DNA of 64,000 nt from an uncultured Bacteriovoracaceae bacterium (GTDB taxonomy: Bacteria; Desulfobacterota; Desulfomonilia; UBA1062), in NCBI GenBank assembly GCA_964400685.1, contig CAYNVT010000002.1:25870-89869 (forward strand), written 5' to 3'. The notes beneath the pieces were generated by a model. It ran no database searches, was not told the DNA's origin, and worked only from the letters and a program-made list of their open reading frames with translations. The position numbers were made by a program, and so were the translations under genes. Below are positions 625 to 45,664 of the stretch, piece by piece; position 1 is the first letter of the stretch, and the number at the start of each line of letters is the position of its first letter.

Positions 625-705
625 AATACGCCGTGTAGGATACCCAAAGCAACAAGGGCATGATTAATATTTCAAACCATAATATCTTAACGATTTACAC
701 AATGT

Positions 706-5877: not shown

Positions 5878-8800
5878 ATGGGAATATACGATAAACAAGC
5901 TCCAGATGATGACGTGACTAGCGCTGTTCAGATATTGGAGAGGAGGGACCTTGATCTCGTCACCGATATTGATCTGCACAGTTATACCGGATCAGGAAGT
6001 TCTGCTGCCTGGGAAGGGGCGCAGTTTGAATTTTTGAAAGTGAAGGCCATTTCAAGGTCACTTGCAGATAAAAAGTCTGATGTTGAGCGTTACTTGATGG
6101 AAGATGTCTTGTCTGGACTGAACGGTCTGAAAGCTCCTTTTGTTTATTTAATAATAGGGTCAGAATTGAAGGTTAGTATTTACCTTGGGATTTTAAATAA
6201 ATCTATGACCAAAACTTCTGTTCCCCTTCATCTTGATATGCTTTCAAGTTCGTTGCAGAGCACATTTCCTGACATAGAGCTTGAGGCGTTGAGTAAATAT
6301 GATGTTGATAGTAACATTGTGCAATTTATTCAAAAGTGCCGGTATTATGGCATAATGACCGGAGTTCCAACAGCAAAAATCGGAGTAGAAGAACATGGAA
6401 TCGAACAGATTGAGCGGTTGTTGAGAGGACTATACCGACAGGAATTTGGGTATATGATAATTGCAGATCCTGTTAATGATATTGATGTAATCAAGTCATT
6501 TGATGACATAGCAAATATTATCAGGGAAAAATCTCCATTAATAAAGGAATCAAAGCAAGTTAGTCAGTCATCAAGAGTTACTGTGAGCGGAGAATCGCTC
6601 AACAGATCAGTGCAATATTATGTGGAATTGCTTGAGGCACTGCTTGGAAAGTTACAATTGGCTAAAGCTCAGGGCATGTGGCGGACAATGGCTTATTATT
6701 TCTCCCCAAGCCATGCAACAACAGCCAAGATGAGCACTTTGCTGAGAACTGTGTTCAGTGGAGAAGAGTCAGTCCCTGAAGCGATTCGTACTATTGCTCT
6801 AACAAACAAGAATCCATCAGCAATCCTTACTCAATTCAGGCAGATTGAACTTGATTTGAACTCTCATACGGCATCTTCAGCAGATCATCCATTGCAAAAG
6901 ATAATAAAACACAAATTTGCATCAATCCTGAATTCCCGTGATCTAGCCACACTGACACACCTTCCAAAGGAAGAGATGCCTGGATATGACGTCAAGGATA
7001 CTGCGAGATTCGGTGTCTGTCTACCTGACAGGAGCTCTGCAGATACTCTTACTATTGGCGAGATAATAGATCGTGGCAGCGGTACAGGTAATCATTATGG
7101 CGTTTATGTACAAGAATTAGTTAAGCATGGTTTAATAGCAGGCGTGACTGGTAGTGGTAAGACTAATACCTGTCTGAATCTTATCAGTAGGCTATGGAAG
7201 AATGGTAATTCTGGAGTGCCGTTTTTGGTTATAGAACCTGCAAAAGCCGAATATCGATCTCTATTGAATATAGAAGGGTATGAAGACCTGCAGGTATTCA
7301 CTCTCGGGGATGAGATGACTTCTCCTTTCAGACTGAATCCCTTTGAGATAATGGAAGGGGTAAAACTTCAAACACACATAGATAACCTCAGGGCGGTTTT
7401 TAATGCAAGTTTTGTCATGTATGCCCCGATGCCATATGTTCTCGAGAGGTGCATCCATGAAGTATATAAAGATAAAGGATGGGATTTGACCACCAACCTG
7501 AATAGATCTTCTGGAACTACTGATAGAAGTCCTTATGGGGTATTCCCAACACTGACTGATCTCTATGAGAAAATCGATCCTGTAGTTGATGCCATGGGAT
7601 ATGAAGACAGACTGACGATGGATATTAAAGCTGGATTAAAAGCCAGGATCGGAAGCCTGAGAATAGGAGGGAAAGGTTCGATGCTTGATTCTTCTCTGTC
7701 TATTCCCATGGACAACTTATTGAATAAACCCACGATCCTCGAACTTCAGAGTATAGGGGATGATGAGGAAAAAGCATTTATCATGGGACTTTTGATAGCA
7801 AGGCTTTATGAATACAGGGAAATTGAAAGCAAAAGAAAAGGAAACAATGCCGGATTGAAACATGTCACCCTCATAGAAGAGGCACATAGATTGTTAACTA
7901 AAGCCTCCACGGATTTCGGCAATCTTGAGAACGTAAGCACAAAGGCAAAGGCTGTTGAGACCTTCTGCAATATTCTTTCTGAGATCAGAGCCTTTGGAGA
8001 AGGCATTTTAATTGCTGAGCAGATACCTTCAAAACTAGCCCAGGACGCAATCAAGAATACAAATCTCAAGATCATGCACCGGATTGTTGCTAAGGATGAC
8101 CGTGACCTGATGGGTGACACCATGAATCTTAATGAACAGCAGAACAAGTTCATTTCGATCATGGCCAAGGGTGAAGCAGCTGTTTTTTCAGAAGGGTTTA
8201 ATGAGCCTTTCCTGGTTAGAGTATCACATTACCAGTCATCGTCAAAAAAGATAAATCCTAAGGTTGACAGCATACAGGATAAGGATGTCAGCCGGTTTAT
8301 GGCAAATAAACTGAGAACACTTGATAATGTATTGGGCAGGCACAGCGGCTGCAAACAATGTCAGTATAAATGTGCTTATAGAGATACTGCAAATCATCTT
8401 CTTTCAAGTCAAGAACTTATCAGTTATTTTTGCAAATTCATATTTGCGATAATAGAAAAGCCAGACAGTTTAACAACTGTTTTCCCACCTTTCAGAGATG
8501 CCGTATTGATAGATTTAAGAGATTCATTACAGAAAGAAGAAGAAGTTAATGAGATCATGTTCTGCTTCCTGATAAATGCGGGTGAATCTTATATTCGTGA
8601 AAAGGGAAGGAAGTATGATCTAGCCTCGAAATATTTATTCGCTTTATTTAATACCTATAACAATTTTATAAATTCCTATTTTGCAATTCCTGTGAAGACA
8701 CAGTTATCAGATGATACCAGAAGGTATCTTAATGTATTCCAGAGATGTTATAGAGAAAGTTTTGCAACTGAAAATGGTCCCTTTCCTGGGTGCAACGAGT

Positions 8801-9093
8801 TTTGTAAAAACAGGTGCTTTTTTAAGTATGATGTTGAACCACTTATTAAGGATAATCTAAAAGACAAAGAATACAAAGAAATTATAAGGATCAAAGACTT
8901 AAAACAGGCTAAAGCAAGACTTAGGGAATACTGTATTGAAACTGCCCGAAATATGACTCTGGGTAATAACGGTAATAGCCCTGATTTTGTGGAGAATATT
9001 GCACTCTGCTTTTTTATACAGAAATCAGTCAAGGATAGAATGGATAAAGTTTTGGATAATGTGAAAAATTGGTTTTTTAACATAAAGGATTAA
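5878..9093 (+). CDS. large HerA/FtsK-superfamily (DUF87-like) P-loop ATPase with Cys-rich C-terminal region (1071 aa)
   Basis: Walker A GVTGSGKTNT. Walker B/DEAH-like VTLIEEAHRLL. C-terminal cysteine clusters CKQCQYKCAYRD and CNEFCKNRCFF. Confidence 0.7.
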   Translation: MGIYDKQAPDDDVTSAVQILERRDLDLVTDIDLHSYTGSGSSAAWEGAQFEFLKVKAISRSLADKKSDVERYLMEDVLSGLNGLKAPFVYLIIGSELKVSIYLGILNKSMTKTSVPLHLDMLSSSLQSTFPDIELEALSKYDVDSNIVQFIQKCRYYGIMTGVPTAKIGVEEHGIEQIERLLRGLYRQEFGYMIIADPVNDIDVIKSFDDIANIIREKSPLIKESKQVSQSSRVTVSGESLNRSVQYYVELLEALLGKLQLAKAQGMWRTMAYYFSPSHATTAKMSTLLRTVFSGEESVPEAIRTIALTNKNPSAILTQFRQIELDLNSHTASSADHPLQKIIKHKFASILNSRDLATLTHLPKEEMPGYDVKDTARFGVCLPDRSSADTLTIGEIIDRGSGTGNHYGVYVQELVKHGLIAGVTGSGKTNTCLNLISRLWKNGNSGVPFLVIEPAKAEYRSLLNIEGYEDLQVFTLGDEMTSPFRLNPFEIMEGVKLQTHIDNLRAVFNASFVMYAPMPYVLERCIHEVYKDKGWDLTTNLNRSSGTTDRSPYGVFPTLTDLYEKIDPVVDAMGYEDRLTMDIKAGLKARIGSLRIGGKGSMLDSSLSIPMDNLLNKPTILELQSIGDDEEKAFIMGLLIARLYEYREIESKRKGNNAGLKHVTLIEEAHRLLTKASTDFGNLENVSTKAKAVETFCNILSEIRAFGEGILIAEQIPSKLAQDAIKNTNLKIMHRIVAKDDRDLMGDTMNLNEQQNKFISIMAKGEAAVFSEGFNEPFLVRVSHYQSSSKKINPKVDSIQDKDVSRFMANKLRTLDNVLGRHSGCKQCQYKCAYRDTANHLLSSQELISYFCKFIFAIIEKPDSLTTVFPPFRDAVLIDLRDSLQKEEEVNEIMFCFLINAGESYIREKGRKYDLASKYLFALFNTYNNFINSYFAIPVKTQLSDDTRRYLNVFQRCYRESFATENGPFPGCNEFCKNRCFFKYDVEPLIKDNLKDKEYKEIIRIKDLKQAKARLREYCIETARNMTLGNNGNSPDFVENIALCFFIQKSVKDRMDKVLDNVKNWFFNIKD

Positions 9094-9125
9094 ATCTTAA
9101 ATTAAGAGTTAGGGAGGGAATAGGT

Positions 9126-10013
9126 ATGAAAGATGTTCCTCAAACTGATGAAACACCAGAAAAAGAGATTGCTCAACCACCTGAAAAGCAGCTCGATACA
9201 TATGATAATTTAAGAACAGATGACAATTCAGGACGAACTGAAACCTATGATGATCTGAGAGAAACCGGCGATGGGAAACAGATGAGCACATATGACGATT
9301 TACGGGCAGAGGACGAAGTAACAGAAAAAAAAGACTCAAAATCTGACGCTGACTCCTTAAAAATTAATAGGCATGAAATAGTTGAACAGCGAAGAATAGA
9401 TCAGGCTGCTGAGGACATCAAGCAAAATGAATGGATGAATCCCCAAAAATGGAAAACATTGAATGTCGACGATCAGAGACAAGCTCTCGAAGACTGTGGA
9501 AAATCCCTTGGAAAAGCATATGACCACCCCGAACCGCCAATCATAACCAAAGATTTGAACAATCCAAATTTACAAGGCACTTATGGAGATGGTTACTCAT
9601 ATCGTCCGGAAAGTCCTTATGCTGACAAGAATGGAGTTACTGGCGCTGACTATGGCATAGAAATAAATGAAAATAGCAGGAAGGATCTTTTTGGTGAAGA
9701 TCCACGGAAGGCTGTTGAGACCTACGGACATGAGTTCAGGCATTCATATCAGCATGAACAGGCATTACGTTACGAAAAAGGGTTCGGAGTTGATGATCCT
9801 GAAAAGGCTAAAGAATGGTCGGAAAATTTTAAGGACAATAACTATAAAAATGCGCCGGATGCTGAATTAGCAAAAAGTGATCCTGAAAAATATTATAAGA
9901 AGTATGAGGAATACAGAAATCAGCCGGTGGAAAGCGATGCTCGAGAATTTGGAAGAAAATTATCTTCCAGTGTTTATTCGGATTACGAAAACATTGAGAA
10001 GGAAGAAAAGTGA
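9126..10013 (+). CDS. acidic hypothetical protein with tandem TYDDLR-type repeats (295 aa)
   Basis: RBS GAGGGAAtaggtATG. Three degenerate repeats: TYDNLRTDDNSGR, TETYDDLRETGDG, MSTYDDLRAEDEV. Confidence 0.55.
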   Translation: MKDVPQTDETPEKEIAQPPEKQLDTYDNLRTDDNSGRTETYDDLRETGDGKQMSTYDDLRAEDEVTEKKDSKSDADSLKINRHEIVEQRRIDQAAEDIKQNEWMNPQKWKTLNVDDQRQALEDCGKSLGKAYDHPEPPIITKDLNNPNLQGTYGDGYSYRPESPYADKNGVTGADYGIEINENSRKDLFGEDPRKAVETYGHEFRHSYQHEQALRYEKGFGVDDPEKAKEWSENFKDNNYKNAPDAELAKSDPEKYYKKYEEYRNQPVESDAREFGRKLSSSVYSDYENIEKEEK

Positions 10014-10189
10014 ACATCGAAACTTTATGGCATTTATTGATATTATGAAAAATGTAAAATTGTTGACGATCTTCTTGATCATGAAGATTCACTTTATTGG
10101 GAAAACATATCTATGGGGGATACAATTAAATGGATGACTGCTTTCTAATCTCAAGTGAGCTGGATCACTATATTTTCAAGGAGGAATGA

Positions 10190-10528
10190 ATGGGTGGTCT
10201 TTCTAACGCACTCTGGCTATGGCTCCCGGTACTTATATATAAAATTATTGCGGCAATCTTCAGGACCATATGGAAATTCAACCTTTGGATTCTTCAGACG
10301 ATCAGTGGAGTACCCTTGTATTATTGCAGGCCTGAGTACCGTTTACCGGCGATTTTTTTAGGGACGTTAGGGTTGTTATTTGCGTTAAGCTGTCTATCAA
10401 TAATCCTGACATTGGGTTCCGTATCGAATTACAATGCTGAAAACATAAGCCAATTATTTGTATTTTGCATTGTTGGGCTTGGACTGCTGGTATTATGCAG
10501 AGTCCTAATAAGAAGAGGATCAATTTAA
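10190..10528 (+). CDS. small integral membrane protein (112 aa)
   Basis: RBS AAGGAGGaatgaATG. Three hydrophobic segments. Confidence 0.5.
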   Translation: MGGLSNALWLWLPVLIYKIIAAIFRTIWKFNLWILQTISGVPLYYCRPEYRLPAIFLGTLGLLFALSCLSIILTLGSVSNYNAENISQLFVFCIVGLGLLVLCRVLIRRGSI

Positions 10529-10530
10529 AA

Positions 10531-11196
10531 ATGAAAATAAAATATAAGAACACAAATTATAATATTCAATTTGGAATGGGACAACCATTGACAATGGGTG
10601 TTACGATAATAGGTGGAATATCGATCGTACTATATATCCTGACCCAGACGAAGAGAGATATCCTTTACCCTTTGTTAGGATTCATCCCGTCCAATGTCTT
10701 TGGAAAACTCATGGTCTGGCAGTTTGTAACGGCTAATTTTATGCACATTAATCTGACACATTTAATCTTTAATATGTTCGGGCTTTACATGTTCGGCTGT
10801 CCTGTTGAAAAGAAGATGGGGCAAATTGAATTTATCAAATATTTTCTTTTCTGTGGAATTGGGGGCTATTTGCTTGCATTTATTCTATGGCTCATCGGAT
10901 TAAGTCCGAATCATCTTATTATCGGAGCTTCAGCCGGAATTTATGGCTTATTGTTAGCATTTTCTCTTTTGTATCCTAATCAGAAGATATTGCTTTTCTT
11001 TGTCATTCCTATGCAGGCAAAATGGTTGGCTGTAATCTTCGGAGGATTAGAATTTTTCCTTATGTTCAGAAGTGATGGCATCAGCCACATCGGACATCTT
11101 GGGGGATTATTGGCAGGCTTAGGTTATTTTATGTATATGAAGAAAATAGACTATGATGATGAGGAGGATAATGATGAGGAGGAGAGCGATTCATAA
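10531..11196 (+). CDS. rhomboid-family intramembrane serine protease
   Basis: GASAGIYGLL (GxSG catalytic Ser) and HIGHLGGLLAG (catalytic His helix). Multiple TM segments. Start placed at the ATG after the upstream gene's stop; the track ORF extends further in-frame. Confidence 0.7.
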   Translation: MKIKYKNTNYNIQFGMGQPLTMGVTIIGGISIVLYILTQTKRDILYPLLGFIPSNVFGKLMVWQFVTANFMHINLTHLIFNMFGLYMFGCPVEKKMGQIEFIKYFLFCGIGGYLLAFILWLIGLSPNHLIIGASAGIYGLLLAFSLLYPNQKILLFFVIPMQAKWLAVIFGGLEFFLMFRSDGISHIGHLGGLLAGLGYFMYMKKIDYDDEEDNDEEESDS

Positions 11197-11487
11197 GATA
11201 TTATCTTAACAGGATAAACCTAAAAACGACTTTATTAGCGATAACCTATATGAATTTAGCATGCTATACAATTTATGATTTTAAAGTAATAAGTGAAAGG
11301 ATAAAACTAATAAAAACGTTTTATTCATGCCTGTTTAAAGAGGTATTCTTAAAGAGAAATTCTTTGGAAGGTTTTTTAAACAAGATCAATAAATTAATTG
11401 AGTTAGAGTTAATGTCTGTTTATTCAAACTGTTTAATAACTCCAGTATGGGGTTCAAATGAATTAAATTGAACACAAGGAGATATCA

Positions 11488-13821
11488 ATGGGAGGAATTG
11501 ATCTTGGCTGGAGTGGTAAACAGGATAATCCCAAACTGCGCCAGCAGATGACCGAAGAACTGGTTATTCTCTGCAAAGATATGGGCTGGGAGCATGAGGT
11601 CTTATCTCCACGGCAGACATTCACAACCATAGTAGAACCCCCTTACTGGTACATGATGCAACATAACAATCCCATGTATTCAGGTAACCCTGAAACAAAT
11701 TCTCCATCAGATCAAATAGAGCACAAATTTATTGGTGAGAAGGATATTACTGAATACGTTTATAAAATCCCGAATCCCTTGAAAGGGAAGATATTTGAGG
11801 TCGCACGTGAAGGAGTGATTATTTATCCCTATGGGACGGAACCCGATTTTATAACTGAATGCTCCTTTGCATTTATTCTTGGAAAAAATTTACCTTTCAA
11901 ATTGCAGAACAATATCGCCACCCAACCAGAAAGGTTTCATGATGGTGAAAAAAGAAATGATCATTTTATTCTTCATGGTGATGCACGAATGAACAGCAAT
12001 GCTGCATATGGCCTTTGCAAACTTATGACTATTATCAAGCGTTTATGGGTACCTGGTCTCACTTTTGATGCAGAAGGTATAGATGAGCAAGCAAAGAGCA
12101 TAGCAGAAAATTTTGGGATGTTCCTCACATCAGGCAAACAAGTGCTTGCACTTTTGAGGAGTAGTAAATTCAGGGATCAATTGGCCAAGTTAACATCATT
12201 TGCCGAGACTAGAATGAATGTGGGCAATTATCCGAAATTCTGGGACCGTTATTGTAGTTTCATTAAACACGTAGGGGATGCTCCTATCCCTGATCTGGAA
12301 GCTCTCACGGCCATGATGAATAACAAGTATGCCAATAAATGGCTGAAGGTTAGTATTGCCGCTTTGCTATTCACTCCCGGTAATGTCCATGAGTTCTTGC
12401 GGAATCATGATATCCGCGATCTGGGCACCCTCTGTGAAAGGGGCAAAGATATCCTGATGTGCCCTTATCCACCCAGTGTTGAAGATATGGGTAAGAATGA
12501 AATTGATGTTAACCTCCGTAAGGCACTCTGGTTCCTTGCAGATCCACAAACCGACATCGATGAAAATGAAATTATTGGATTTGTAGAAAACATCCCTGAA
12601 ACATCCCCAAAAACTTCACCTGTCGCTGCCAAGGAAAAAGTATCTGATCCGGTACCACATATAATCTGGAACGATACTGAACATTATGAGGCTATCTTAT
12701 CGGATATTTCATGTCAGATGAATGCCATGAATCCAAAGAACATCATGCAGTTCTTCAACAGTATAGATAAAATTGATTTCTCCATGGACGTGAGCCATAA
12801 GGTAATCTGGCATGACGGAATAGCTATTGCAGTTAAAAACCTGGATGCGATCTTCTTTTATAATATATGTGATCTTTGGGCTGGTTTGCCGGTTGTGGAG
12901 CAGATGTTTCAGGTTGACCCCGAACCTATATACAGTACCAGGGATGATTTTATAGAAACATTCATGCCATTGTTATATACGAGTAAGGATGAGATAATCA
13001 TAACTGGTTGCGGAAAGGAATTACGTTCAGAATTATTCAGATCTGTAATCTCTGAATGGAATATTGAATATAGGGAACCTCCTGAAGAAGCATGGAAGGT
13101 CAGCTACTGGATCAAGGAAAAGCATAGGGATTGGTATTTTTGGAAAGGACTTCTTATAAATGTGCAGGAACATGTGGGCGAAGACAAAAGTTCCATACAA
13201 ATGAGTGTTTGCCCTTTCACTGTATATCCGGAGATCATTAAATATATTCACGGATGGAAATATTTCTTCAGATTCTCTGAGTTATGCAATCCATTGAATG
13301 ATTATTTCTCACCGCTTACGACTAATCGTTTAAAGAGACTCGGATTCCAATTTCTGGCAGATCTTGTTCAAGTGTCTTATGAAACAATCATAGAGATGCT
13401 TAAGAAGACTCCGGGTAAAGGTGTGAGGTCAATCGAGGAGATAAGGGATGTATTTGGTAAAAAAGAAGATTTTCAAAATGGACGGATAACCTTTGGGATG
13501 AATCTAAAAGAGGATGTTCTTGGACCTGCATCAGCCTCGCGGTGGTGGCCGATGGCTAATCACAGACTCTGCGCTGATGCCCTCTGCAGGGGATGTATAT
13601 ATAATGAGAAAAGTGAAGACGACAGACGCATCTGTATTCTGCGGAATCAGACAATTCGGAATGAGCATGAAGAATTCTGCCTGTCATTTTGTTTACATGA
13701 AAAGATAAGAAAAAAACCTGATAATAATATTGCTTTAGGTCCAGTTTTTAGAATGTTTGCCTCTGGCACGATCGGTTTCAGACCGTATGATATCCCAGAT
13801 AAAATGAAGGAGGATATATGA
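11488..13821 (+). CDS. hypothetical protein (777 aa), first gene of the TPR-CHAT operon
   Basis: RBS ACAAGGAGAtatcaATG. No recognisable motif. Its stop overlaps the next start (ATGA). Confidence 0.65.
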   Translation: MGGIDLGWSGKQDNPKLRQQMTEELVILCKDMGWEHEVLSPRQTFTTIVEPPYWYMMQHNNPMYSGNPETNSPSDQIEHKFIGEKDITEYVYKIPNPLKGKIFEVAREGVIIYPYGTEPDFITECSFAFILGKNLPFKLQNNIATQPERFHDGEKRNDHFILHGDARMNSNAAYGLCKLMTIIKRLWVPGLTFDAEGIDEQAKSIAENFGMFLTSGKQVLALLRSSKFRDQLAKLTSFAETRMNVGNYPKFWDRYCSFIKHVGDAPIPDLEALTAMMNNKYANKWLKVSIAALLFTPGNVHEFLRNHDIRDLGTLCERGKDILMCPYPPSVEDMGKNEIDVNLRKALWFLADPQTDIDENEIIGFVENIPETSPKTSPVAAKEKVSDPVPHIIWNDTEHYEAILSDISCQMNAMNPKNIMQFFNSIDKIDFSMDVSHKVIWHDGIAIAVKNLDAIFFYNICDLWAGLPVVEQMFQVDPEPIYSTRDDFIETFMPLLYTSKDEIIITGCGKELRSELFRSVISEWNIEYREPPEEAWKVSYWIKEKHRDWYFWKGLLINVQEHVGEDKSSIQMSVCPFTVYPEIIKYIHGWKYFFRFSELCNPLNDYFSPLTTNRLKRLGFQFLADLVQVSYETIIEMLKKTPGKGVRSIEEIRDVFGKKEDFQNGRITFGMNLKEDVLGPASASRWWPMANHRLCADALCRGCIYNEKSEDDRRICILRNQTIRNEHEEFCLSFCLHEKIRKKPDNNIALGPVFRMFASGTIGFRPYDIPDKMKEDI

Positions 13822-14144
13822 ATTATGAGCAAGCCAGTAGATTGCTTGAACAAATCGAGAAGACCTCACTGGTTGAACTGAAACGTGAATTACTTATTAA
13901 AGCGACTGAATACGCCCATATCCGAGCGGAGTATTTCCTGACGGACCTGACAGGGAAAACCGAGATGGAAGACAGGCGCAAAAGAGCTCATAACTCCCTT
14001 ATTGATGCCTGTAATATCCTGAGCAGAAATATGCGCAGATTGGAAGAGGAAAATGACTGGCGGGGGGACCTGGGCGATGACCGCAAGGTCATTGGAGATT
14101 TTGCATGCTATGTTCATTGCATCCTTGGAGTTTCGGCAAGATAA
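13818..14144 (+). CDS. hypothetical helical protein (108 aa)
   Basis: Overlaps upstream gene by 4 nt. Ends 4 nt before the TPR-CHAT gene. Confidence 0.5.
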   Translation: MNYEQASRLLEQIEKTSLVELKRELLIKATEYAHIRAEYFLTDLTGKTEMEDRRKRAHNSLIDACNILSRNMRRLEEENDWRGDLGDDRKVIGDFACYVHCILGVSAR

Positions 14145-14147
14145 TTC

Positions 14148-16859
14148 ATGAGCGATAAAGAGATTATTTTCACTGACGAAGAGATCCAGAACTTGCTGGC
14201 CGGAGATGCCGGTTTCAAAAGGATGCTAAACGGCATGTCCAAAGGCCAGGCTGCAGGTGTAAAAAGCATTATAACGAATCACAAACTTCTGAACATTCTT
14301 ATGAAATTTCTTCCCAAAAATTATAAGTACCAGTTTCAACAGATCTTCGATAAGGGATTGACCAAACCGGACCATGCGGTCAGGTTCTATGAGGAAGGGC
14401 GTTTCTTCGAGGCGAGAGAGATGCTCCTCAAATATATAGAGCTCTTCAATTACACATCCGACACCAAGTGGGGGGCCTTGAATAAGGCTGTGGATTTCTC
14501 TACAAAACGCGCGAGATCATTGTGTTATCACCTTTTGGGCGAGATCGAATGGACTCTGGGAAATGCTGAAAATGCTGGCTATTGCTATGGTTGTTCCCTG
14601 GAGATTGCCAAAGAAATCAATGATGTGGATACGATTGCAAAAGCGCTGCTGGGGTTGGGCATCTACAACGGAGAGAAGGGAGAATATGGCCGGGCATTTG
14701 ATTACTGTCAGACTGCCCTCAAGACCATAGAAGGCTTGCCGGAAGATCCGTGGAGGTTGCGCCAGAAGACTCTGAATGCAATGGGCGTCATGTTAAGTTC
14801 TATCGGAGAGTCTGACGGTGCATGCGAATGCGCCTTGCAGGCGCTTGAAATATGCAGGGAGACAGACGACCGTAGAAACCTGCCGGTATGTCTGAATAAC
14901 TTTGCAATTAGACTGGTTGGTATAGAGGAATATGAAACAGCTTTAAATGTGCTCTATGAAGGTCTTGACATTGCCGAAGAGGAAAACAACCTGTGCATGC
15001 AGGCCCTGATACTGTGTAACCTGGGGGATGTTAAGGGCATGTATAATGGTCCCGATGCAGATGAAACAGTTATGGCAGACATCGAATTATTATATGAAAG
15101 GGCTTTGCAATTGGGTGAAGAAACCGGTTCAAAACCAATACAAGCCTTGGCAATGCGTTCTATTGGTCAACTCAACTGGCGCATGGGTGATTATAATGCT
15201 GCACTTGGCTATTTCGAAGATGCTTTGCAGATATGTCGGCGCATTGGTGCCAGGGCTGACGAAGCAGGGATTCTGCTTGATCTCGGGATGTTCTTAAGGG
15301 ATGGCTTTGATGATATTGAAGGGGCTTGTCAGAGGCTGAGGGAATGCATTGCAATCATAGAAACCATGAGAAGCGGCCTTAAAAGGGAGACCCATCGCAT
15401 AACCTTTGCCCATCAAAGCATTGAACCTTACGCCTTGATAGTGGAAAGTCTGGTGCAGTGCGGTCATATTGAAGAGGCTCTTACCTATGTTGAGAGGTCA
15501 AAATCCAGAGCCATGCTTGATTTGCTCGGCACAAGACTGCAAAAGAATATGCTTCTTAAAAGCGAGAGCCCTGAGTTTGTGCGGGCTTTGACTCTTTTGA
15601 AAGAAATGGATGAACTTCGTATGGCCCTTGATTCGCTCCAACACGATGAGGAAGGCGGCGATGAAAAAAGAGGAGGTCACACGGCATCAGATGCTGAATT
15701 GTCCAATGCCATGATTGATGAACTTATTCTTAAGGAAAAATCATTTGCCGCCGCTTACGCAGCCTTCAGCGCCGTTGATCCGGAGACGGCATCTCTCGTA
15801 GGTGTAGCGCCAGTGATGTTTGACCATCCTGCAGATATGCTGGATGAAGAAACGATCCTGGTAAACCTGTATCAAACAGATAAGGCTTTGTTGATGTTTT
15901 TTGTTGCAGGTGATGCCAACGTTGAATCTTTTACTGTACCCATGTCTGGCCTGGAAGCTGAAGAAATCATTTGGAACCTCACGCTATCAATGCAGGAAAG
16001 CGCTACATATGATGTTCGCGCGCATGCATATATCAGAGAGGTGCAGAGACCTCTGACTGACCTTTATGACAGATTATTCCAGCCGGTTGAAAAGTTGATT
16101 TCAAGATATAAAAGGATAATCATAGCTCCTCATCTCTTCTGGCACTACCTGCCGTTTCATGCCTTGTATGACCGGAAGGGGAAAGCCTTCCTCTGCGACC
16201 GTTTCGAGGTGGGGATTTGCCCCTCCGCTTCCGTGCTTAAGCTTTGTATTGAAAAGAACAGGACCGGCAGGGGCAGCGCATTGATAATGTCACGCGATAA
16301 TGGTGATCTGCCTTATGCAGACCATGAGGCTGATCTGCTGGCAGCCTCCTTTTATCCTGAATGTGCGGTATTCAAGGGACAAGATGCTAATTGGGGGAAC
16401 TTGAGGAGCCGGCCAGAAGGCTATGACATAATCCATCTGGCATGTCATGGTATGTTTGACGGGTCACAACCTTTTCTCTCCGGTATCGATATACCGCCTG
16501 ACGCAGATGAAGCCCGGAGGACATATCTGCTTGATCTGTTCGATATGCACCTGAATTGTACACAGGTGACATTAAGCTCATGTGAATCGGGGATGAACCA
16601 GTTCACATCGGCCGATGAATTGACTGGCCTAAGCAGGGGATTGTTCTATGCAGGTGCGGCTTCGGTTATGTTGAGCCTCTGGAAAGTCGGCGATGAATCC
16701 ACATGCCAGCTTATGGAGAATTATTACTGGCATTTTGCAAAAAACATGCGAACGAAAACACGAGCCTTGCAGCTTGCCATGCAGGCGCTCAAATCACGGC
16801 CTGAATTTGCACATCCCCGATTCTGGGCGCCATTTGTCATAATGGGGGACTGGAGATGA
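14148..16859 (+). CDS. TPR-repeat protein with C-terminal CHAT (caspase-like) protease domain (903 aa)
   Basis: TPR-like helical repeats in the N-terminal half. CHAT His/Cys dyad contexts IIHLACHGMF and VTLSSCESG. Confidence 0.8.
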   Translation: MSDKEIIFTDEEIQNLLAGDAGFKRMLNGMSKGQAAGVKSIITNHKLLNILMKFLPKNYKYQFQQIFDKGLTKPDHAVRFYEEGRFFEAREMLLKYIELFNYTSDTKWGALNKAVDFSTKRARSLCYHLLGEIEWTLGNAENAGYCYGCSLEIAKEINDVDTIAKALLGLGIYNGEKGEYGRAFDYCQTALKTIEGLPEDPWRLRQKTLNAMGVMLSSIGESDGACECALQALEICRETDDRRNLPVCLNNFAIRLVGIEEYETALNVLYEGLDIAEEENNLCMQALILCNLGDVKGMYNGPDADETVMADIELLYERALQLGEETGSKPIQALAMRSIGQLNWRMGDYNAALGYFEDALQICRRIGARADEAGILLDLGMFLRDGFDDIEGACQRLRECIAIIETMRSGLKRETHRITFAHQSIEPYALIVESLVQCGHIEEALTYVERSKSRAMLDLLGTRLQKNMLLKSESPEFVRALTLLKEMDELRMALDSLQHDEEGGDEKRGGHTASDAELSNAMIDELILKEKSFAAAYAAFSAVDPETASLVGVAPVMFDHPADMLDEETILVNLYQTDKALLMFFVAGDANVESFTVPMSGLEAEEIIWNLTLSMQESATYDVRAHAYIREVQRPLTDLYDRLFQPVEKLISRYKRIIIAPHLFWHYLPFHALYDRKGKAFLCDRFEVGICPSASVLKLCIEKNRTGRGSALIMSRDNGDLPYADHEADLLAASFYPECAVFKGQDANWGNLRSRPEGYDIIHLACHGMFDGSQPFLSGIDIPPDADEARRTYLLDLFDMHLNCTQVTLSSCESGMNQFTSADELTGLSRGLFYAGAASVMLSLWKVGDESTCQLMENYYWHFAKNMRTKTRALQLAMQALKSRPEFAHPRFWAPFVIMGDWR

Positions 16860-16932
16860 AAAATAATCCTTCAGAAAGGAGAGCTGTCAGATTTGATCGG
16901 AACTAATACATTTAATGAAATTTCAGTCTATT

Positions 16933-17247
16933 TTAAATGCTTTTTAGTATTGAGGTTCTTGTATTAGCGTACTCTTCTTTTGAAATTAATCCTTTGTTAA
17001 AGAGTTCCTGAAGTTTAGCTAATCTTGCTTCAGGAGTTGATGTTGCATTTTCGCGCCCCCTAGATTTTTCTCCAGCAATCTGCTGTAACATAGATATATT
17101 TTCTCTTGTTGCTTCTATTTGGTCGCTCTGTTCTTCATATGGTTCATCATCAATAATCTCTTGCAATATTTGCCTTTCATTATCAATTTCAATAAGAATC
17201 TCTTCCAATGTTCTTTTTTCCCAGTTTTCATAATAATCACGTCTCAT
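16933..17247 (-). CDS. SHOCT-domain protein (104 aa)
   Basis: C-terminal LAKLQELFNKGLISKEEYANTRTSIL matches the SHOCT motif. Confidence 0.5.
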   Translation of the reverse strand: MRRDYYENWEKRTLEEILIEIDNERQILQEIIDDEPYEEQSDQIEATRENISMLQQIAGEKSRGRENATSTPEARLAKLQELFNKGLISKEEYANTRTSILKSI

Positions 17248-17428
17248 ACTACACTCCTCAAATAATTAATTGTCAGAATCTCAATGCTTTCAAAAACTAT
17301 ATTGCCGCGAAATAATAATGTAAAAATATTAACTCGACAAGTTTACAATATATCCTGTTTCCTTAATATTTAAGAAGCAACAGGAATTAATACCCATCTC
17401 TTAACTAGATAATTTTATTTACCAGTTG

Positions 17429-17956
17429 TCATATTGGATCATTATAGACGTCACACTCATCTTCAAGCCATTCTGACAGGTTTTCTTTAGTAAGTTCGCG
17501 CATTGGCAATCGTGTAACACTGAACCCTGCACTTTTGAGCTTATTGACCATTATGGGGGCCTCAGAAGGATTCATTGAGTGAATGAGAATTGGAACTGAT
17601 CGAGGCACATAATCAATAATTGCATCAACAACGTTCATACCTGACAGCTTCTTTTCATCTGCGCAGACAATTTGTTCCTGCAAATCATGATCAAGCATAA
17701 TTCCTGAATAAGGTGAATCGCCCTGGCGACTTCGATGATCCATTTTAACTACACCGAGAGCTCTTCCTGCTGATGGCGCATGAACAACCCTTATATGTTT
17801 CGGAAGATACGATATCAGGATTCTCGCACGTTCCTGATCATCTTCAACCAGCAAGATCCTTTGAAAAGTGGGATTTTGATGTAAATCCATAATATGTTCA
17901 TAGACGAAATAAATCCAGAAAGTCGACTTCCATTTTTCTACCAATCGTCTTGACAA
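17429..17956 (-). CDS. stand-alone response-regulator receiver (REC)-like protein
   Basis: ILLVEDDQE ... IMLDHDL ... ILIHSMNP spacing is typical of a CheY-like fold. Start may be an internal Met. Confidence 0.5.
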   Translation of the reverse strand: MSRRLVEKWKSTFWIYFVYEHIMDLHQNPTFQRILLVEDDQERARILISYLPKHIRVVHAPSAGRALGVVKMDHRSRQGDSPYSGIMLDHDLQEQIVCADEKKLSGMNVVDAIIDYVPRSVPILIHSMNPSEAPIMVNKLKSAGFSVTRLPMRELTKENLSEWLEDECDVYNDPI

Positions 17957-18057
17957 AATAAAATCTACTTGTTAGCTACCCTTAGAGTTTTGGATTCCAT
18001 TTGATTGGGCATCAATAATTCCATAAAGAGGAGGGTACGCTCTTCGGACAGGAACAT

Positions 18058-19065
18058 ATGCCGCAAAGTCTGAATGTAGAAAAGATGAGATTTCAAGACT
18101 ACCCACGTTTATCCAATGCAGATCTTGTATCCATGTGCATAAACAAAGACCGTGATGCATGGAATGAGTTTTTCCGTCGATATGACCACGAAATTGAAAG
18201 AGCCATCATTAAAACCTTAAGACGAACAAATTATTACGTAGAAAATCAAGACTACTACCAGGATATCGTTTACGAGATAAAAGAGCCTGTTATTGTGAAA
18301 CTTTATCGGGACAAAGGACTTGAGGGCTGTGACCATCCGGAACGGGTAAAGGCATGGTTATGGAAGATTGCAATCAATAAGACTGTGGATTGGTTGAAGC
18401 AACGCAACGCGGTAAAGAACATACCAAAGAGATTTATCGAGGATACGCTGCTTTCTCTATATACACCTCTTAATGAAGATGAAGATATCATTTTGATCGA
18501 TAAAATCGAAGACGATTATGAAAGTGGACAAATAGATCATGATGAAGCCCTAAAAAACATTATCGATGATATTTTAAAACGGATAGAGGAGATTGACAAT
18601 ATCAGGGCATATTGGACACTTAAACTAAGCCTGATTGCCCACATACCGCTTACGGATAAAAATATACTAGCATTGGCAGAATTTAATGGTATGCCTGTGG
18701 AAGATGTACAGAAAAAACTGGTAGAAATTTACAAGTATGTGGATAAAAAGATTCAAAAAAAGGAGAAAAATGAAGCAAAAGCTATCACTCTTGGTTACAG
18801 GATTTTACGTCTCCAAGCTCTGAGTAAAATTGCTGGCAAGGAAGGCTTTTCTCAAAAGCAAACGGAATTAGAGGCTGAGATAATGGCGTGTTCTGTCCAA
18901 CGAAAAGATTGCATTACCCAGAGCCAGATAGTCTGTCGACCTTCAAACATGGACATCGGTCTGTTAGTCGGGTTACCGATAGATAAAGTCAATCAAGTCA
19001 CTAATATTCTCATTCGCATTCGGGATTCTTTGTCCATGAAAGCAGGTTATGTACAGGAGGATTAA
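18058..19065 (+). CDS. sigma-70 family (ECF-like) RNA polymerase sigma factor with extended C-terminus
   Basis: Region 2-like DAWNEFFRRYDHEIERAI and AWLWKIAINKTVDWLKQRN. Confidence 0.55.
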   Translation: MPQSLNVEKMRFQDYPRLSNADLVSMCINKDRDAWNEFFRRYDHEIERAIIKTLRRTNYYVENQDYYQDIVYEIKEPVIVKLYRDKGLEGCDHPERVKAWLWKIAINKTVDWLKQRNAVKNIPKRFIEDTLLSLYTPLNEDEDIILIDKIEDDYESGQIDHDEALKNIIDDILKRIEEIDNIRAYWTLKLSLIAHIPLTDKNILALAEFNGMPVEDVQKKLVEIYKYVDKKIQKKEKNEAKAITLGYRILRLQALSKIAGKEGFSQKQTELEAEIMACSVQRKDCITQSQIVCRPSNMDIGLLVGLPIDKVNQVTNILIRIRDSLSMKAGYVQED

Positions 19066-19138: not shown

Positions 19139-19981
19139 TTGGAAAAAGATAAAAAGATGTTTCTGGAGAGGGTTATACACATGGAAAAGGGATCCCTTAA
19201 ACCAGAAAATATTAGTAAGCCCATTCCAAACTGTGAACGGTTTGTAGAGGATGATTTTGATTCATATGTGAGAGAGAAGATGCCAGTCGCAAATATTGAA
19301 GTTTTTGAGAACCATTGTGTACAATGCATAAATTGCGCTAGACGTCTGATCCAGGCAAGAAAAACTTTGATTAGGGAACGGGAGAAAGTTAAAGCAGAAC
19401 AGGGCTATCAATGGACAATGCATCTACTGGATAGGATAGATCAGGAGAAACTAGCGAATGAACCTGTTAAAAAAGACTTCAGTGCAAATATCATCAGTAT
19501 TATACTAACTGGTATACAGGAAGTTCTTCAAGTGGTTCAAACAACAGGGGATGTTTTGGAGTTGGTGCCGATACAGTCGCGAAGATATCATTCAAAGCCA
19601 ATATCTGTTGGTATGGACACACAGAATAAAGACAATGGTGGAAAGAATATAATAAATGCACAGGAGTATGAAAATCAGTCAGCCATTCAGATCGTACAGG
19701 AATTTGAACAGCCCAGTATATCGGTCCAGTCGACCATCACCAGAGAAGGCACTGAATATCTGCGGGTTGTAGTTTCCGTATACGATAAGGATGTTGATGA
19801 TTTCATATCAGGGTTAGAGATACAAATACACCAGGGTCCGAATCTTGAACACACAACTCTGAGTGATTTAAACGGTGAAGCTAGCTTTCTGCTAAGTGTC
19901 GCGGTGGAGTATAAGATTGATATTATACGTGATAATACGTCTATCGGACGTATCCACTTAGAAATGCAAACACCTGTTTAA
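19139..19981 (+). CDS. putative anti-sigma factor with zf-HC2 zinc finger
   Basis: ENHCVQCINCARRL (H-x3-C-x2-C) near the N-terminus. Lies directly downstream of the sigma factor. TTG start at 19139 or ATG at 19157. Confidence 0.55.
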   Translation: MEKDKKMFLERVIHMEKGSLKPENISKPIPNCERFVEDDFDSYVREKMPVANIEVFENHCVQCINCARRLIQARKTLIREREKVKAEQGYQWTMHLLDRIDQEKLANEPVKKDFSANIISIILTGIQEVLQVVQTTGDVLELVPIQSRRYHSKPISVGMDTQNKDNGGKNIINAQEYENQSAIQIVQEFEQPSISVQSTITREGTEYLRVVVSVYDKDVDDFISGLEIQIHQGPNLEHTTLSDLNGEASFLLSVAVEYKIDIIRDNTSIGRIHLEMQTPV

Positions 19982-22004: not shown

Positions 22005-22029
22005 TAGGCAAATAAGAGGAGATAAGTAT

Positions 22030-22563: not shown

Positions 22564-22605
22564 GCATACGATTTGTAATAGAAATAGCAATAGGAGGTAC
22601 TGAAA

Positions 22606-36333: not shown

Positions 36334-36363
36334 TTCTTATTTTTGTTAATAAAAGGGGCGTTT

Positions 36364-45633: not shown

Positions 45634-45664
45634 TCCTGAAGAGTATTCAAAGGAGGATCAAGGT

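What the first reader, a model, noticed from the sequence alone, without database searches (positions are those of the whole stretch)
11488..16859. Translationally coupled 777-aa unknown / 108-aa / TPR-CHAT protease operon
The genes overlap or abut: ATGA overlap at 13818, then a 4-nt gap. The last gene encodes TPR repeats plus a CHAT caspase-like domain with an intact His/Cys dyad context (HLACHG, LSSCESG). CHAT proteases are the effector arm of several signalling and defence systems. The 777-aa partner has no recognisable domain and may be the sensor or substrate.
Basis: partly seen in the sequence, partly recalled or inferred. Interest (0 to 1): 0.7.

Follow-up and report, generated by a model that had tools for sequence, protein, structure and literature searches.

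The report
Caspase-like protease with sigma/anti-sigma partners
The three tightly packed genes are real and the last one is an intact caspase-like (TPR-CHAT) protease, but its conserved partners are a sigma factor and a zinc anti-sigma factor 1.2 kb downstream, not the two upstream genes, so it looks like a CRISPR-free cousin of the protease-to-sigma-factor switches known from type III CRISPR systems.

Summary
ORFs 11488-13821 (777 aa), 13818-14144 (108 aa, ATGA overlap) and 14148-16859 (903 aa) exist, but the second gap is 3 nt, not 4. The 903-aa protein is TPR + full-length CHAT, and its His767/Cys812 align with the catalytic dyad of craspase TPR-CHAT.

The proposed partnership does not hold. 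No CHAT ortholog locus has a 777-family gene beside it, and only one has a 108-aa homolog, 9 kb away. None of 6 777-family loci and none of 80 108-aa-family loci has either of the other two genes.

All 11 distinct loci with a full-length or near-full-length CHAT ortholog have an adjacent zinc-binding (ZAS) anti-sigma-like gene, and at least 9 also have a divergent ECF-like sigma-70 gene. In the window these lie at 18058-19065 and 19139-19981, separated from CHAT by two inserted minus-strand genes.

Most likely mechanism (inferred): a cytoplasmic TPR-CHAT protease cleaves or inactivates the anti-sigma factor and releases the sigma factor. This parallels Csx29-Csx30-CASP-sigma, CalpL/T/S and DdvA/DdvS, but without CRISPR.

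The 777-aa protein belongs to a rare family (12 relatives among 1.84 billion representatives) with RNA polymerase alpha-CTD-like domains and a C-terminal Cys cluster. The 108-aa protein belongs to a widespread small family with no fixed neighbour. Both look like lineage-specific operon passengers.

The parts
14148..16859 (+). TPR-CHAT caspase-like cysteine protease, 903 aa, predicted cytoplasmic. Catalytic dyad His767/Cys812. Core gene of the conserved cassette.
   Evidence: Pfam CHAT is full length at E 2.4e-52, with TPR_12 x4. The dyad aligns with H585/C627 of Sb TPR-CHAT. It is invariant in the 8-sequence clade alignment and present in 10 of 10 orthologous loci. The best NCBIfam hit is Csx29 NF041237, E 5.8e-16, below its cut-off. 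No hydrophobic segment reaches TM level.
18058..19065 (+). Divergent sigma-70-family (ECF-like) sigma factor, 335 aa. It has sigma2 and sigma4 separated by an insertion of about 130-150 aa that includes a sigma3-like stretch. Conserved partner of the CHAT gene.
   Evidence: NCBIfam TIGR02937 sigma70-ECF matches 9 of 9 family members. The window protein scores E 3.2e-6. L009 scores 51.5 bits, above the 42.9 cut-off, with the model covered end to end. The type III-E CRISPR sigma model NF041236 hits 3 of 9. Pfam Sigma70_r3 hits 5 of 9. hhalign places it in register with E. coli RpoE sigma2. The top PDB hits are SigA/RpoS. It is adjacent to the CHAT ortholog in 9 of 11 loci.
19139..19981 (+). Soluble ZAS-type (zinc-binding) anti-sigma-like protein, 280 aa. 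It has an N-terminal C32...H59-x3-C63-x2-C66 motif, a conserved TTGE linker helix and a C-terminal beta-sandwich. Conserved partner and proposed substrate of the CHAT protease.
   Evidence: The motif is invariant or nearly so in 11 sequences. The profile's top four PDB hits are the anti-sigma factors RslA, DdvA, RsiW and RsrA (E 0.026-0.34), aligned on the HxxxCxxC motif. zf-HC2 hits 2 of 11 and CarboxypepD_reg hits weakly. It is adjacent to the CHAT ortholog in 11 of 11 loci. No TM segment.
11488..13821 (+). 777-aa protein of a rare family. It has an N-terminal alpha/beta domain, RNA polymerase alpha-CTD-like helix-hairpin-helix domain(s) (clearest at about 600-660, a second candidate at about 290-320) and a C-terminal Cys cluster (C700, C703, C716, C731). 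It is first in the local operon but is not a conserved partner of CHAT.
13818..14144 (+). 108-aa helical protein of a widespread small family. Its invariant C-terminal motif is D-R-K-x-I-G-D-F-A. It is translationally coupled to the 777 gene here but has no fixed neighbour elsewhere.
   Evidence: 151 relatives were found in metagenome contigs and 80 loci were fetched. None has a 777, CHAT, sigma or anti-sigma neighbour. The largest neighbour cluster covers 6 of 80 loci. A 56% homolog in L001 lies 9 kb from CHAT, beside a 134-aa alpha-CTD protein. A homolog also occurs on a Mammaliicoccus plasmid. No Pfam, NCBIfam, PHROG, PADLOC or PDB match.
16933..17956 (-). Two minus-strand genes (a SHOCT-like 104 aa at 16933-17247 and a cREC_REC-like 175 aa at 17429-17956). 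They separate CHAT from its sigma/anti-sigma genes in this genome only.
   Evidence: Pfam SHOCT E 5.8e-6 and cREC_REC E 4.5e-7. In the closest relative, L001, CHAT is followed directly by sigma and anti-sigma. cREC homologs lie beside HerA-like genes in L011 and L016.
11197..11487 (+). AT-rich spacer (26% GC) upstream of the 777 gene. It is the probable promoter region of the 777-108-CHAT unit. The 73-aa ORF inside it is probably spurious.
   Evidence: Composition. No homolog or domain was sought for the 73-aa ORF. This reading is an inference.

Best explanation
The 903-aa gene encodes an active-site-intact, cytoplasmic TPR-CHAT protease. It is the most conserved member of a three-gene cassette: an ECF-like sigma factor, a soluble zinc-binding (ZAS) anti-sigma factor and the TPR-CHAT protease. 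The cassette occurs mainly in Desulfobacterota.

The usual gene order is sigma, anti-sigma, CHAT. In this window, and in its closest relative, the order is CHAT, sigma, anti-sigma. Here two inserted minus-strand genes additionally split the cassette.

Proposed mechanism (inferred, not shown):
1. In the resting state the anti-sigma factor holds the sigma factor through its N-terminal zinc domain.
2. A cue sensed by the TPR/N-terminal part of the protease, or by a kinase/phosphatase pair that often accompanies the cassette, switches the CHAT dyad on.
3. The protease cuts the anti-sigma factor in the linker between its zinc domain and its C-terminal beta-sandwich.
4. The remnant is degraded, possibly by the ClpA/B-like + ClpP pair encoded just downstream.
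5. The freed sigma factor redirects RNA polymerase.

The 777-aa and 108-aa genes are co-transcribed with the protease in this genome only. They are lineage-specific passengers: one from a rare alpha-CTD-like family, the other a promiscuous small helical protein. They are not its conserved sensor or substrate.
For: Shown:
- CHAT domain and dyad.
- Tight ortholog clade at 35-55% identity.
- An anti-sigma-like gene is adjacent in 11 of 11 distinct loci and a sigma-like gene in 9 of 11. Gaps are from -14 to about 200 nt.
- Sigma identity.
- ZAS motif and anti-sigma PDB hits.
- All five proteins lack TM-level hydrophobic segments.
- The best curated-family hits for the protease and the sigma factor are the type III-E CRISPR Csx29 and CASP-sigma models, although below their cut-offs.
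- More distant TPR-CHAT proteins also sit directly after a Sigma70_r2 gene or a zf-HC2 gene.
- The 777 and 108 genes are absent from all other cassette loci, except one 108-aa homolog 9 kb from CHAT in L001.

Precedent from the literature:
- Csx29 cleaves Csx30 to release CASP-sigma (PMC10028731).
- DdvA fuses a ZAS anti-sigma domain to a TPR-CHAT domain (PMC11506125).
- The CalpL/T/S tripartite protease, anti-sigma and sigma system is described in the abstract listed.

A ClpA/B-like + ClpP pair lies right after the anti-sigma gene, and ClpB-like genes lie near the cassette in L002 and L012.
Against: No experiment or structure prediction links the protease to the anti-sigma factor; adjacency is the only evidence.

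No cleavage site is known. The conserved linker arginine is aligned inconsistently for the window protein: R149 in the 4-sequence alignment, but a Gly at the equivalent column in the 11-sequence alignment.

The anti-sigma assignment rests on a motif plus weak profile hits (E 0.026-0.34).

The window's sigma protein scores below the curated TIGR02937 cut-off (26.9 vs 42.9 bits).

In this genome the protease is transcriptionally separated from sigma/anti-sigma and joined to two other genes. This could mean a changed role here.

In L011 the gene upstream of the anti-sigma gene is not recognisable as a sigma factor.
Confidence: 0.55

Rival explanations
1. One reading: 777 aa, 108 aa and TPR-CHAT form one functional system. 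The 777-aa protein would be the sensor or substrate of the protease, and the 108-aa protein an adaptor or inhibitor.
For: The gene arrangement suggests co-transcription and translational coupling in this genome: an ATGA overlap, a 3-nt gap, no + strand terminator-like site inside, and an AT-rich spacer upstream. The 108-aa gene and CHAT share a higher GC/GC3 (0.46/0.49 and 0.47/0.49) than their neighbours. The closest relative island, L001, also carries a 108-aa homolog. The 777-aa protein carries an alpha-CTD-like domain, which fits a transcription theme shared with the sigma cassette.
Against: The trio is not conserved. No other CHAT-clade locus has a 777-family gene, and only L001 has a 108-aa homolog, 9 kb away and not adjacent. 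None of 6 777-family loci has a CHAT or a 108-aa gene, although only L008 and L022/L023 are long enough to be informative about CHAT. None of 80 108-aa-family loci has either partner. The 777 gene has a different base composition from CHAT and the 108-aa gene.
Confidence: 0.1
2. The protease is an output rather than the trigger. The ZAS anti-sigma factor senses the signal itself (for example thiol oxidation, as in RsrA), the freed sigma factor raises expression of the cassette, and the CHAT protease then cleaves other cellular or invader proteins as a caspase-like effector.
For: In most loci CHAT is the last gene of a sigma, anti-sigma, CHAT unit. It would therefore be induced with the sigma factor if the unit is autoregulated, as is typical for ECF sigma factors (established knowledge). 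The zinc motif C-x26-H-x3-C-x2-C matches the redox-sensitive ZAS class. CHAT proteases act as effectors in other systems; the SAVED-CHAT cascade is listed.
Against: No candidate effector substrate (gasdermin-like or toxin) is conserved next to the cassette. In the window and in L001 CHAT lies upstream of the sigma gene. Promoter-like motifs upstream of the sigma genes look sigma-70-like (TTGACA-N17-TAGnTA) rather than ECF-like. Both characterised cases that link a TPR-CHAT to a sigma factor place the protease upstream of sigma release.
Confidence: 0.22
3. The sigma factor is controlled mainly by Ser/Thr phosphorylation, through the kinase/PP2C pairs common in these islands. The TPR-CHAT protein would act as a scaffold or have an unrelated role.
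For: PP2C genes occur near the cassette in 5 of about 11 loci and Ser/Thr kinase genes in 4. The window has a PP2C gene at 1-624. ECF groups regulated by neighbouring kinases are documented (PMC8999054 and PMC7826278).
Against: The kinase and PP2C genes are not universal and are not adjacent. The anti-sigma and CHAT genes are universal and adjacent. An invariant catalytic dyad argues for an active protease rather than a scaffold.
Confidence: 0.08

Closest known systems
Type III-E CRISPR craspase signalling arm (Csx29 TPR-CHAT, Csx30, Csx31, CASP-sigma/RpoE)
   Same: A cytoplasmic TPR-CHAT protease is encoded with an ECF-like sigma factor and a sigma-binding inhibitor. The His/Cys dyad aligns. 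The best curated-family hits for the protease and for some sigma members are the III-E models. In craspase the protease cleaves the inhibitor to free the sigma factor.
   Different: The window has no Cas7-11/gRAMP gene and no CRISPR-like repeats. Scores lie far below the family cut-offs (58.5 vs 300 bits; 19.5-25.6 vs 100 bits). The inhibitor here is a 280-aa ZAS-type protein rather than Csx30, with no Csx30/Csx31 hit in NCBIfam or PDB searches. The activating signal cannot be a crRNA-target duplex.
DdvA-DdvS of Myxococcus xanthus (ZAS anti-sigma fused to a periplasmic TPR-CHAT, plus an ECF sigma)
   Same: A ZAS CHCC zinc anti-sigma domain, a TPR-CHAT module and a sigma factor occur in one regulatory unit. 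The DdvA N-terminal domain is among the top PDB hits of the anti-sigma profile. CHAT-mediated cleavage of the anti-sigma factor is the proposed trigger.
   Different: DdvA is one transmembrane polypeptide with a periplasmic CHAT that lacks a three-helix active-site motif. Here the anti-sigma factor and the protease are separate and soluble, and the sigma factor carries a large insertion.
CalpL-CalpT-CalpS (type III CRISPR SAVED-Lon protease, anti-sigma, ECF-like sigma)
   Same: A tripartite logic of protease, anti-sigma factor and sigma factor (abstract).
   Different: That protease is a cA4-activated Lon-SAVED enzyme, not a CHAT. It depends on CRISPR second messengers.
ECF54-type sigma factors with CHAT, carboxypeptidase or subtilase genes in their neighbourhood
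   Same: The genomic association of ECF sigma factors with CHAT-domain proteins has been noted in ECF classifications (PMC8999054).
   Different: ECF54 is actinobacterial and is described as lacking an anti-sigma factor. The present family is from Desulfobacterota, has a ZAS anti-sigma factor, and its sigma factor has an insertion. Group membership could not be tested.
RNA polymerase alpha subunit C-terminal domain (for the 777-aa protein)

Membership tests
CHAT domain proteases (Pfam PF12770, caspase-like clan) | Full-length match to the CHAT profile above the gathering score | tested here: met
   178.6 bits against a cut-off of 24. Profile positions 1-289 of 289, residues 633-901.
CHAT domain proteases (Pfam PF12770, caspase-like clan) | Catalytic His-Cys dyad at the conserved positions | tested here: met
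   H767 and C812 align with H585 and C627 of Sb TPR-CHAT (residue numbers counted by hand in the 7x8a_D alignment). PMC9729208 names these residues as the catalytic dyad. They are invariant in the clade.
Type III-E CRISPR Csx29 (craspase protease) | Match to NCBIfam NF041237 above its cut-off | tested here: not met
   58.5 bits against a cut-off of 300. Only the CHAT half aligns (residues 560-860).
Type III-E CRISPR Csx29 (craspase protease) | Encoded with Cas7-11/gRAMP and a CRISPR array | tested here: not met
   No direct-repeat family in the 64-kb window. No ORF over 1071 aa, and no Cas-like Pfam hit among the large ORFs scanned. No Cas7-11-sized ORF is evident in the listed genes of the related loci, but these loci were not screened systematically for cas genes.
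Type III-E CRISPR Csx29 (craspase protease) | Encoded with an ECF-like sigma factor and a sigma-binding inhibitor | tested here: met
   Sigma-like and anti-sigma-like genes are adjacent in 9 and 11 of 11 loci respectively. The inhibitor is not a Csx30 homolog.
Sigma-70 family, ECF-like (NCBIfam TIGR02937) | Sigma2 and sigma4 regions matching the superfamily model | tested here: inconclusive
   The window protein scores 26.9 bits (E 3.2e-6), below the 42.9 cut-off. All 9 family members match, and L009 passes at 51.5 bits with the model covered from position 2 to 165. hhalign is in register with RpoE sigma2. Family-level membership is supported; for the single sequence it is below threshold.
ZAS (zinc-binding) class I anti-sigma factors | H/C-x23-26-H-x3-C-x2-C zinc motif in an N-terminal helical domain | tested here: met
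   C32-x26-H59-x3-C63-x2-C66. C63 and C66 are invariant and H59 is at least 90% conserved in 11 sequences. The top four PDB hits are ZAS anti-sigma factors, aligned on the motif.
ZAS (zinc-binding) class I anti-sigma factors | Binds and inhibits its cognate sigma factor | not testable with these tools
   Needs pull-down, two-hybrid or a complex structure prediction.
DdvA-type TPR-CHAT anti-sigma factors | ZAS domain, one TM helix and TPR-CHAT in one polypeptide | tested here: not met
   There are two separate genes. The highest 19-residue Kyte-Doolittle mean is 1.46 (anti-sigma) and 1.18 (CHAT), below the usual TM level.
ECF54 group | Placement in the ECF54 clade of the ECF classification | not testable with these tools
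   ECF Hub group models are not available here. The literature describes ECF54 as actinobacterial and without an anti-sigma factor, which does not fit.
Known anti-phage defence systems (PADLOC-DB) | Match of the operon proteins to defence-system models | tested here: not met
   The 777-aa and 108-aa proteins have no hit. CHAT hits only generic TPR models.

The most novel reading that the evidence does not exclude
In this lineage the sigma/anti-sigma/TPR-CHAT switch may have acquired a new input. The 777-aa protein would act as a mimic of the RNA polymerase alpha C-terminal domain, a bait for factors that hijack alpha-CTD (for example phage transcription regulators). Together with the 108-aa protein it would pass that signal to the co-translated CHAT protease, which would then free the sigma factor. 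This would be a guard-type sensor of transcription takeover wired to a caspase-like protease.
Probability: 0.07. Interest if true: 0.8.

Novelty: new variant of a known kind. Interest (0 to 1): 0.5.

Why it matters
Protease-controlled release of a sigma factor is known for CRISPR-linked systems (craspase, CalpL/T/S) and for the membrane protein DdvA. In each case the input is a CRISPR signal or is unknown.

A soluble three-gene sigma/ZAS anti-sigma/TPR-CHAT cassette with no CRISPR component would be a simpler setting in which to ask two questions:
- What activates TPR-CHAT proteases outside CRISPR?
- Is the craspase signalling arm derived from such free-standing cassettes?

More distant TPR-CHAT proteins also sit next to sigma or zf-HC2 genes, so the association may be general for this very large, mostly uncharacterised protein family.

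For annotation, the result corrects a tempting but wrong inference from operon structure. The translationally coupled upstream genes are not the protease's conserved partners.

The 777-aa family is itself a rare, unannotated family with alpha-CTD-like domains.

Tried and rejected
- Word-indexed homolog searches found only the query itself for the 777-aa protein and for the sigma-like protein. The full HMMER scan was needed for the 777-aa protein.
- A single-sequence AF2 model of the 777-aa protein was unusable (pLDDT 33.7).
The sigma and anti-sigma folds were therefore not modelled.
- The afdb50 fold library was unavailable.
- BFVD (viral structures) gave no meaningful match for the 777-aa model.
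- Alignments of the 777 family were too divergent to seed a locus scan.
- PADLOC and PHROGs gave nothing for the 777-aa or 108-aa proteins.
- The phage and plasmid collections gave no relatives of the 777-aa protein. For the 108-aa protein they gave one plasmid hit. No plasmid resembles the region.
- Viral-contig scans for the CHAT clade, the 108-aa family and the 777-aa protein found nothing.
- The promoter/terminator scan was not above shuffled expectation.
- A repeat search for insertion boundaries around 8900-17500 gave only chance-level matches, so no transposon-like borders can be claimed for the 777/108 segment.
- A gasdermin-type substrate was considered for the 280-aa protein and rejected in favour of an anti-sigma factor, on the zinc motif and the PDB hits.
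Full report
**1. The observation**

The region contains three same-strand ORFs: 11488-13821 (777 aa), 13818-14144 (108 aa) and 14148-16859 (903 aa).

- The first junction is a 4-nt ATGA overlap.
- The second is a 3-nt gap (TAA-TTC-ATG), not 4 nt as written.
- Shine-Dalgarno-like AGGAG/AGGAGG motifs precede the first two starts.
- Upstream lies a 291-nt spacer of 26% GC. Its 73-aa ORF is most likely spurious.
- Downstream the next gene is convergent, at 16933-17247 on the minus strand.
- No + strand terminator-like site lies inside the unit. The promoter/terminator scan as a whole was not above shuffled expectation.

One transcription unit with translational coupling is therefore plausible in this genome, but it has not been shown.

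**2. The protease**

- Pfam gives a full-length CHAT match (E 2.4e-52; profile 1-289 of 289; residues 633-901) and four TPR_12 stretches.
- A phmmer alignment to solved craspase TPR-CHAT chains places His767 (HLACHG) on His585 and Cys812 (LSSCESG) on Cys627. PMC9729208 names these two residues as the catalytic dyad.
- Both residues are invariant in the 8-sequence ortholog alignment and present in all ten orthologous loci inspected.
- The best curated-family hit is the type III-E Csx29 model, far below its cut-off (58.5 vs 300 bits).
- No hydrophobic segment reaches transmembrane level.

**3. Who the partners are**

The protease has a sharply bounded ortholog clade. Seven proteins share 39-50% identity, after which identity drops to 25%. 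A further 12 loci turned up in species-representative genomes. Almost all are Desulfobacterota MAGs, plus one contig binned as Methanosarcinaceae.

I compared all genes in these loci with the window by BLASTP and with HMMs built from the alignments.

- In every one of the 11 distinct loci with a full-length or near-full-length ortholog, a homolog of window ORF 19139-19981 (280 aa) lies directly beside the protease gene.
- In 9 of the 11 loci, a homolog of window ORF 18058-19065 (335 aa) lies beside that. Of the other two, L010 is cut off upstream. L011 has an unrecognisable 256-aa gene in that position.
- The usual order is 335-like, 280-like, CHAT, with gaps from -14 to about 200 nt.
- L001, the closest relative, has CHAT, 335-like, 280-like.
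- The window has the L001 order, but with two minus-strand genes (SHOCT-like and cREC_REC-like) inserted after CHAT.

None of these loci contains a relative of the 777-aa protein. Only L001 contains a relative of the 108-aa protein (56% identity), and it sits 9 kb from CHAT.

**4. What the conserved partners are**

*The 335-aa family is a divergent sigma-70-family factor.*

- NCBIfam TIGR02937 (sigma70-ECF) matches 9 of 9 members. The L009 member passes the curated cut-off (51.5 vs 42.9 bits) with the model covered end to end across about 300 residues. This implies sigma2 and sigma4 separated by an insertion of about 130-150 residues.
- The window protein itself scores 26.9 bits (E 3.2e-6). 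All 15 of its best hits are sigma factors.
- The type III-E CRISPR sigma model hits three members (best E 1e-5).
- Pfam Sigma70_r3 hits 5 of 9 members.
- hhalign aligns the N-terminal part in register with E. coli RpoE sigma2.
- The top PDB hits are SigA, RpoS and SigB.

*The 280-aa family carries the zinc anti-sigma (ZAS) signature C32-x26-H59-x3-C63-x2-C66*.

- The profile's four best PDB hits are the anti-sigma factors RslA, DdvA, RsiW and RsrA, aligned on that motif (E 0.026-0.34).
- zf-HC2 is hit weakly in 2 of 11 members.
- It continues with a conserved TTGE helix, a variable linker and a beta-sandwich with weak CarboxypepD_reg similarity.
- It has no transmembrane segment.

The individual scores are weak, but they agree with one another.

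**5. Wider pattern and literature**

Two more distant TPR-CHAT proteins (27-30% identity) also sit directly after a regulator gene. One follows a Sigma70_r2 gene; the other follows a zf-HC2 gene with overlapping stop and start.

Published precedents:

- In type III-E systems, Csx29 cleaves Csx30, which binds and inhibits the ECF-like CASP-sigma (PMC10028731).
- In M. xanthus, DdvA is a ZAS anti-sigma factor fused through a membrane helix to a periplasmic TPR-CHAT. It is proposed to self-cleave and release DdvS, and that paper states it is the only characterised anti-sigma factor with a TPR-CHAT (PMC11506125).
- CalpL/T/S uses a Lon-SAVED protease, an anti-sigma factor and a sigma factor.
- ECF classifications note CHAT-domain neighbours for group ECF54, described as actinobacterial and lacking an anti-sigma factor.

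My literature searches found no description of a soluble, split, CRISPR-free sigma/ZAS anti-sigma/TPR-CHAT cassette. The library is incomplete, so this is absence of evidence only.

The window has no CRISPR-like repeats and no Cas7-11-sized ORF.

**6. The 777-aa protein**

- The word-indexed search found only the query itself.
- A full HMMER scan of 1.84 billion representatives found 12 relatives, 22-35% identical. The full-length ones are 652-753 aa.
- The alignment confirms the start codon and shows the following conserved features:
  - an N-terminal block (MG.D..W.G.Q..P.LR.AMTEEL; REGV..P.G; E.SFAF; IKRLWVPGL);
  - two helix-hairpin-helix-like segments;
  - a C-terminal block with W687-P688, C700-x2-C703, C716-x-L-R and F-C731.
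- With this 11-sequence alignment, AlphaFold2 gave a usable model (pLDDT 75.5, pTM 0.69). The single-sequence model reached only 33.7.

The family contexts vary and contain neither CHAT nor a 108-aa homolog.

- L022 has two PolIII-alpha-like genes, a pentapeptide protein, two CYTH genes, an ATP-grasp gene and an integrase.
- L008 has Wadjet jetABC on the other strand and a radical SAM/SPASM gene.
- L007, L021 and L024 are short contigs.

**7. The 108-aa protein**

- It has no match in Pfam, NCBIfam, PHROGs, PADLOC or PDB.
- A pattern scan of metagenome contigs found 151 relatives, of which 80 loci were fetched.
- None of the 80 has a 777-family, CHAT-clade, sigma-like or anti-sigma-like gene.
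- Its neighbours are heterogeneous. The largest neighbour cluster, a WYL-type regulator, occurs in 6 of 80 loci. Others include PP2C-like, DnaQ-like and HerA-like proteins, and even housekeeping-looking genes.
- A homolog lies on a Mammaliicoccus plasmid between an EEP-family nuclease gene and a PIN-like gene.
- In L001 its neighbour is a 134-aa stand-alone alpha-CTD protein. With the window, that makes two cases next to an alpha-CTD-like protein. This is suggestive but rests on only two loci.

**8. Synthesis**

The window and L001 are related islands that share several genes in shuffled order: PP2C (57% identity), PcfJ-like (47%), a HerA-like ATPase (37%), the 108-aa gene (56%) and the cassette.

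In L001 the HerA-like gene abuts CHAT. In the window, about 5 kb is interposed: a 295-aa gene, a rhomboid gene, and the 777-aa and 108-aa genes. No repeat boundaries were found.

The 777-aa gene has a base composition different from CHAT and the 108-aa gene (GC 0.40 vs 0.47 and 0.46).

The best-supported reading is that CHAT belongs functionally to the sigma/anti-sigma pair, and that 777/108 are lineage-specific operon passengers. The proteolytic-release mechanism is inferred from adjacency and from the three published systems, not shown. The main rival is that the protease is an induced effector rather than the trigger.

Frequent companions suggest additional layers of control:

- PP2C in 5 loci;
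- Ser/Thr kinase in 4 loci;
- HerA-like ATPase in at least 4 loci;
- ClpA/B-like in 3 loci, with ClpP directly downstream in the window.

**9. Verdict**

- Observation: confirmed, with a one-nucleotide correction.
- Interpretation: partly supported. The protease assignment is right; the partner assignment is wrong.
- What is there: a new variant of a known kind. It is a CRISPR-independent, soluble, three-gene sigma/ZAS anti-sigma/TPR-CHAT cassette, here split and fused into an operon with two unrelated genes. One of those genes represents a rare alpha-CTD-like family.
- Interest: moderate.

Noticed in passing
window 20193-23124: A ClpA/B-like double AAA+ ATPase (603 aa), ClpP (177 aa) and a dCTP deaminase-like protein (172 aa) lie directly downstream of the anti-sigma gene. 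ClpB-like genes also lie near the cassette in L002 and L012. These may degrade the cleaved anti-sigma factor, or they may form a separate nucleotide-depletion defence module.
   Followed up: partly
window 17429-17956 (-) and 5878-9093 (+): A cREC_REC-like 175-aa gene and a 1071-aa HerA-like ATPase (NCBIfam 'serine-rich protein' E 6e-50, HerA C-terminal region). cREC homologs sit beside HerA-like genes in L011 and L016, which suggests a separate two-gene module that recurs next to the cassette.
   Followed up: partly
window 1-1998; L001 17851-20650: A PP2C phosphatase and a PcfJ-like protein are shared with L001 (57% and 47% identity) but sit on the other side of the cassette. PP2C occurs in 5 cassette loci and Ser/Thr kinases in 4.
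   Followed up: partly
window 43498-48862; 36343-39012; 40145-41533 (-): A VWA protein (711 aa) is followed by a 1065-aa Tubulin_2-domain protein. There is also a REC + HD-CE protein (889 aa) and a CYTH-domain protein (462 aa). Together these look like a cluster of conflict- or signalling-type genes.
   Followed up: no
L009 (JBQVMC010000006.1): A complete sigma/anti-sigma/CHAT cassette lies on a contig binned as a Methanosarcinaceae archaeon. A bacterial-type sigma factor in an archaeon suggests mis-binning or recent transfer.
   Followed up: no
L106/L107 and L108: More distant TPR-CHAT proteins (27-30% identity) sit directly after a 191-aa Sigma70_r2 gene, or after a 199-aa zf-HC2 gene with overlapping stop and start. 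The association may extend well beyond this clade.
   Followed up: partly
window 17950-17978; upstream of the sigma genes in L001, L009, L016: A TTGACA-N17/18-TA(G/C)nnn promoter-like element lies about 80-110 nt upstream of the sigma gene in 4 of 8 loci. In the window it lies in the divergent spacer shared with the cREC gene.
   Followed up: partly
L001 21813-22494: The 108-aa homolog is followed by a 134-aa stand-alone RNA polymerase alpha-CTD protein (NCBIfam rpoA models, E down to 8.8e-12) and then a DnaB-like helicase. With the window's 777-aa gene, this is a second case of the 108-aa family next to an alpha-CTD-like protein.
   Followed up: partly
L011 11274-15765: Downstream of that cassette lie WXG100-like small proteins and a 1045-aa FtsK/EssC-like ATPase, which resemble a type VII-like secretion module.
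   Followed up: no
L014 1787-4470: The CHAT ortholog with the highest identity in named genomes (55%) is broken into three overlapping ORFs. This is either a pseudogene or an assembly frameshift.
   Followed up: no
window 11250-11471: A 73-aa ORF with 25% GC lies inside the AT-rich spacer upstream of the 777 gene. It is probably not a gene.
   Followed up: partly
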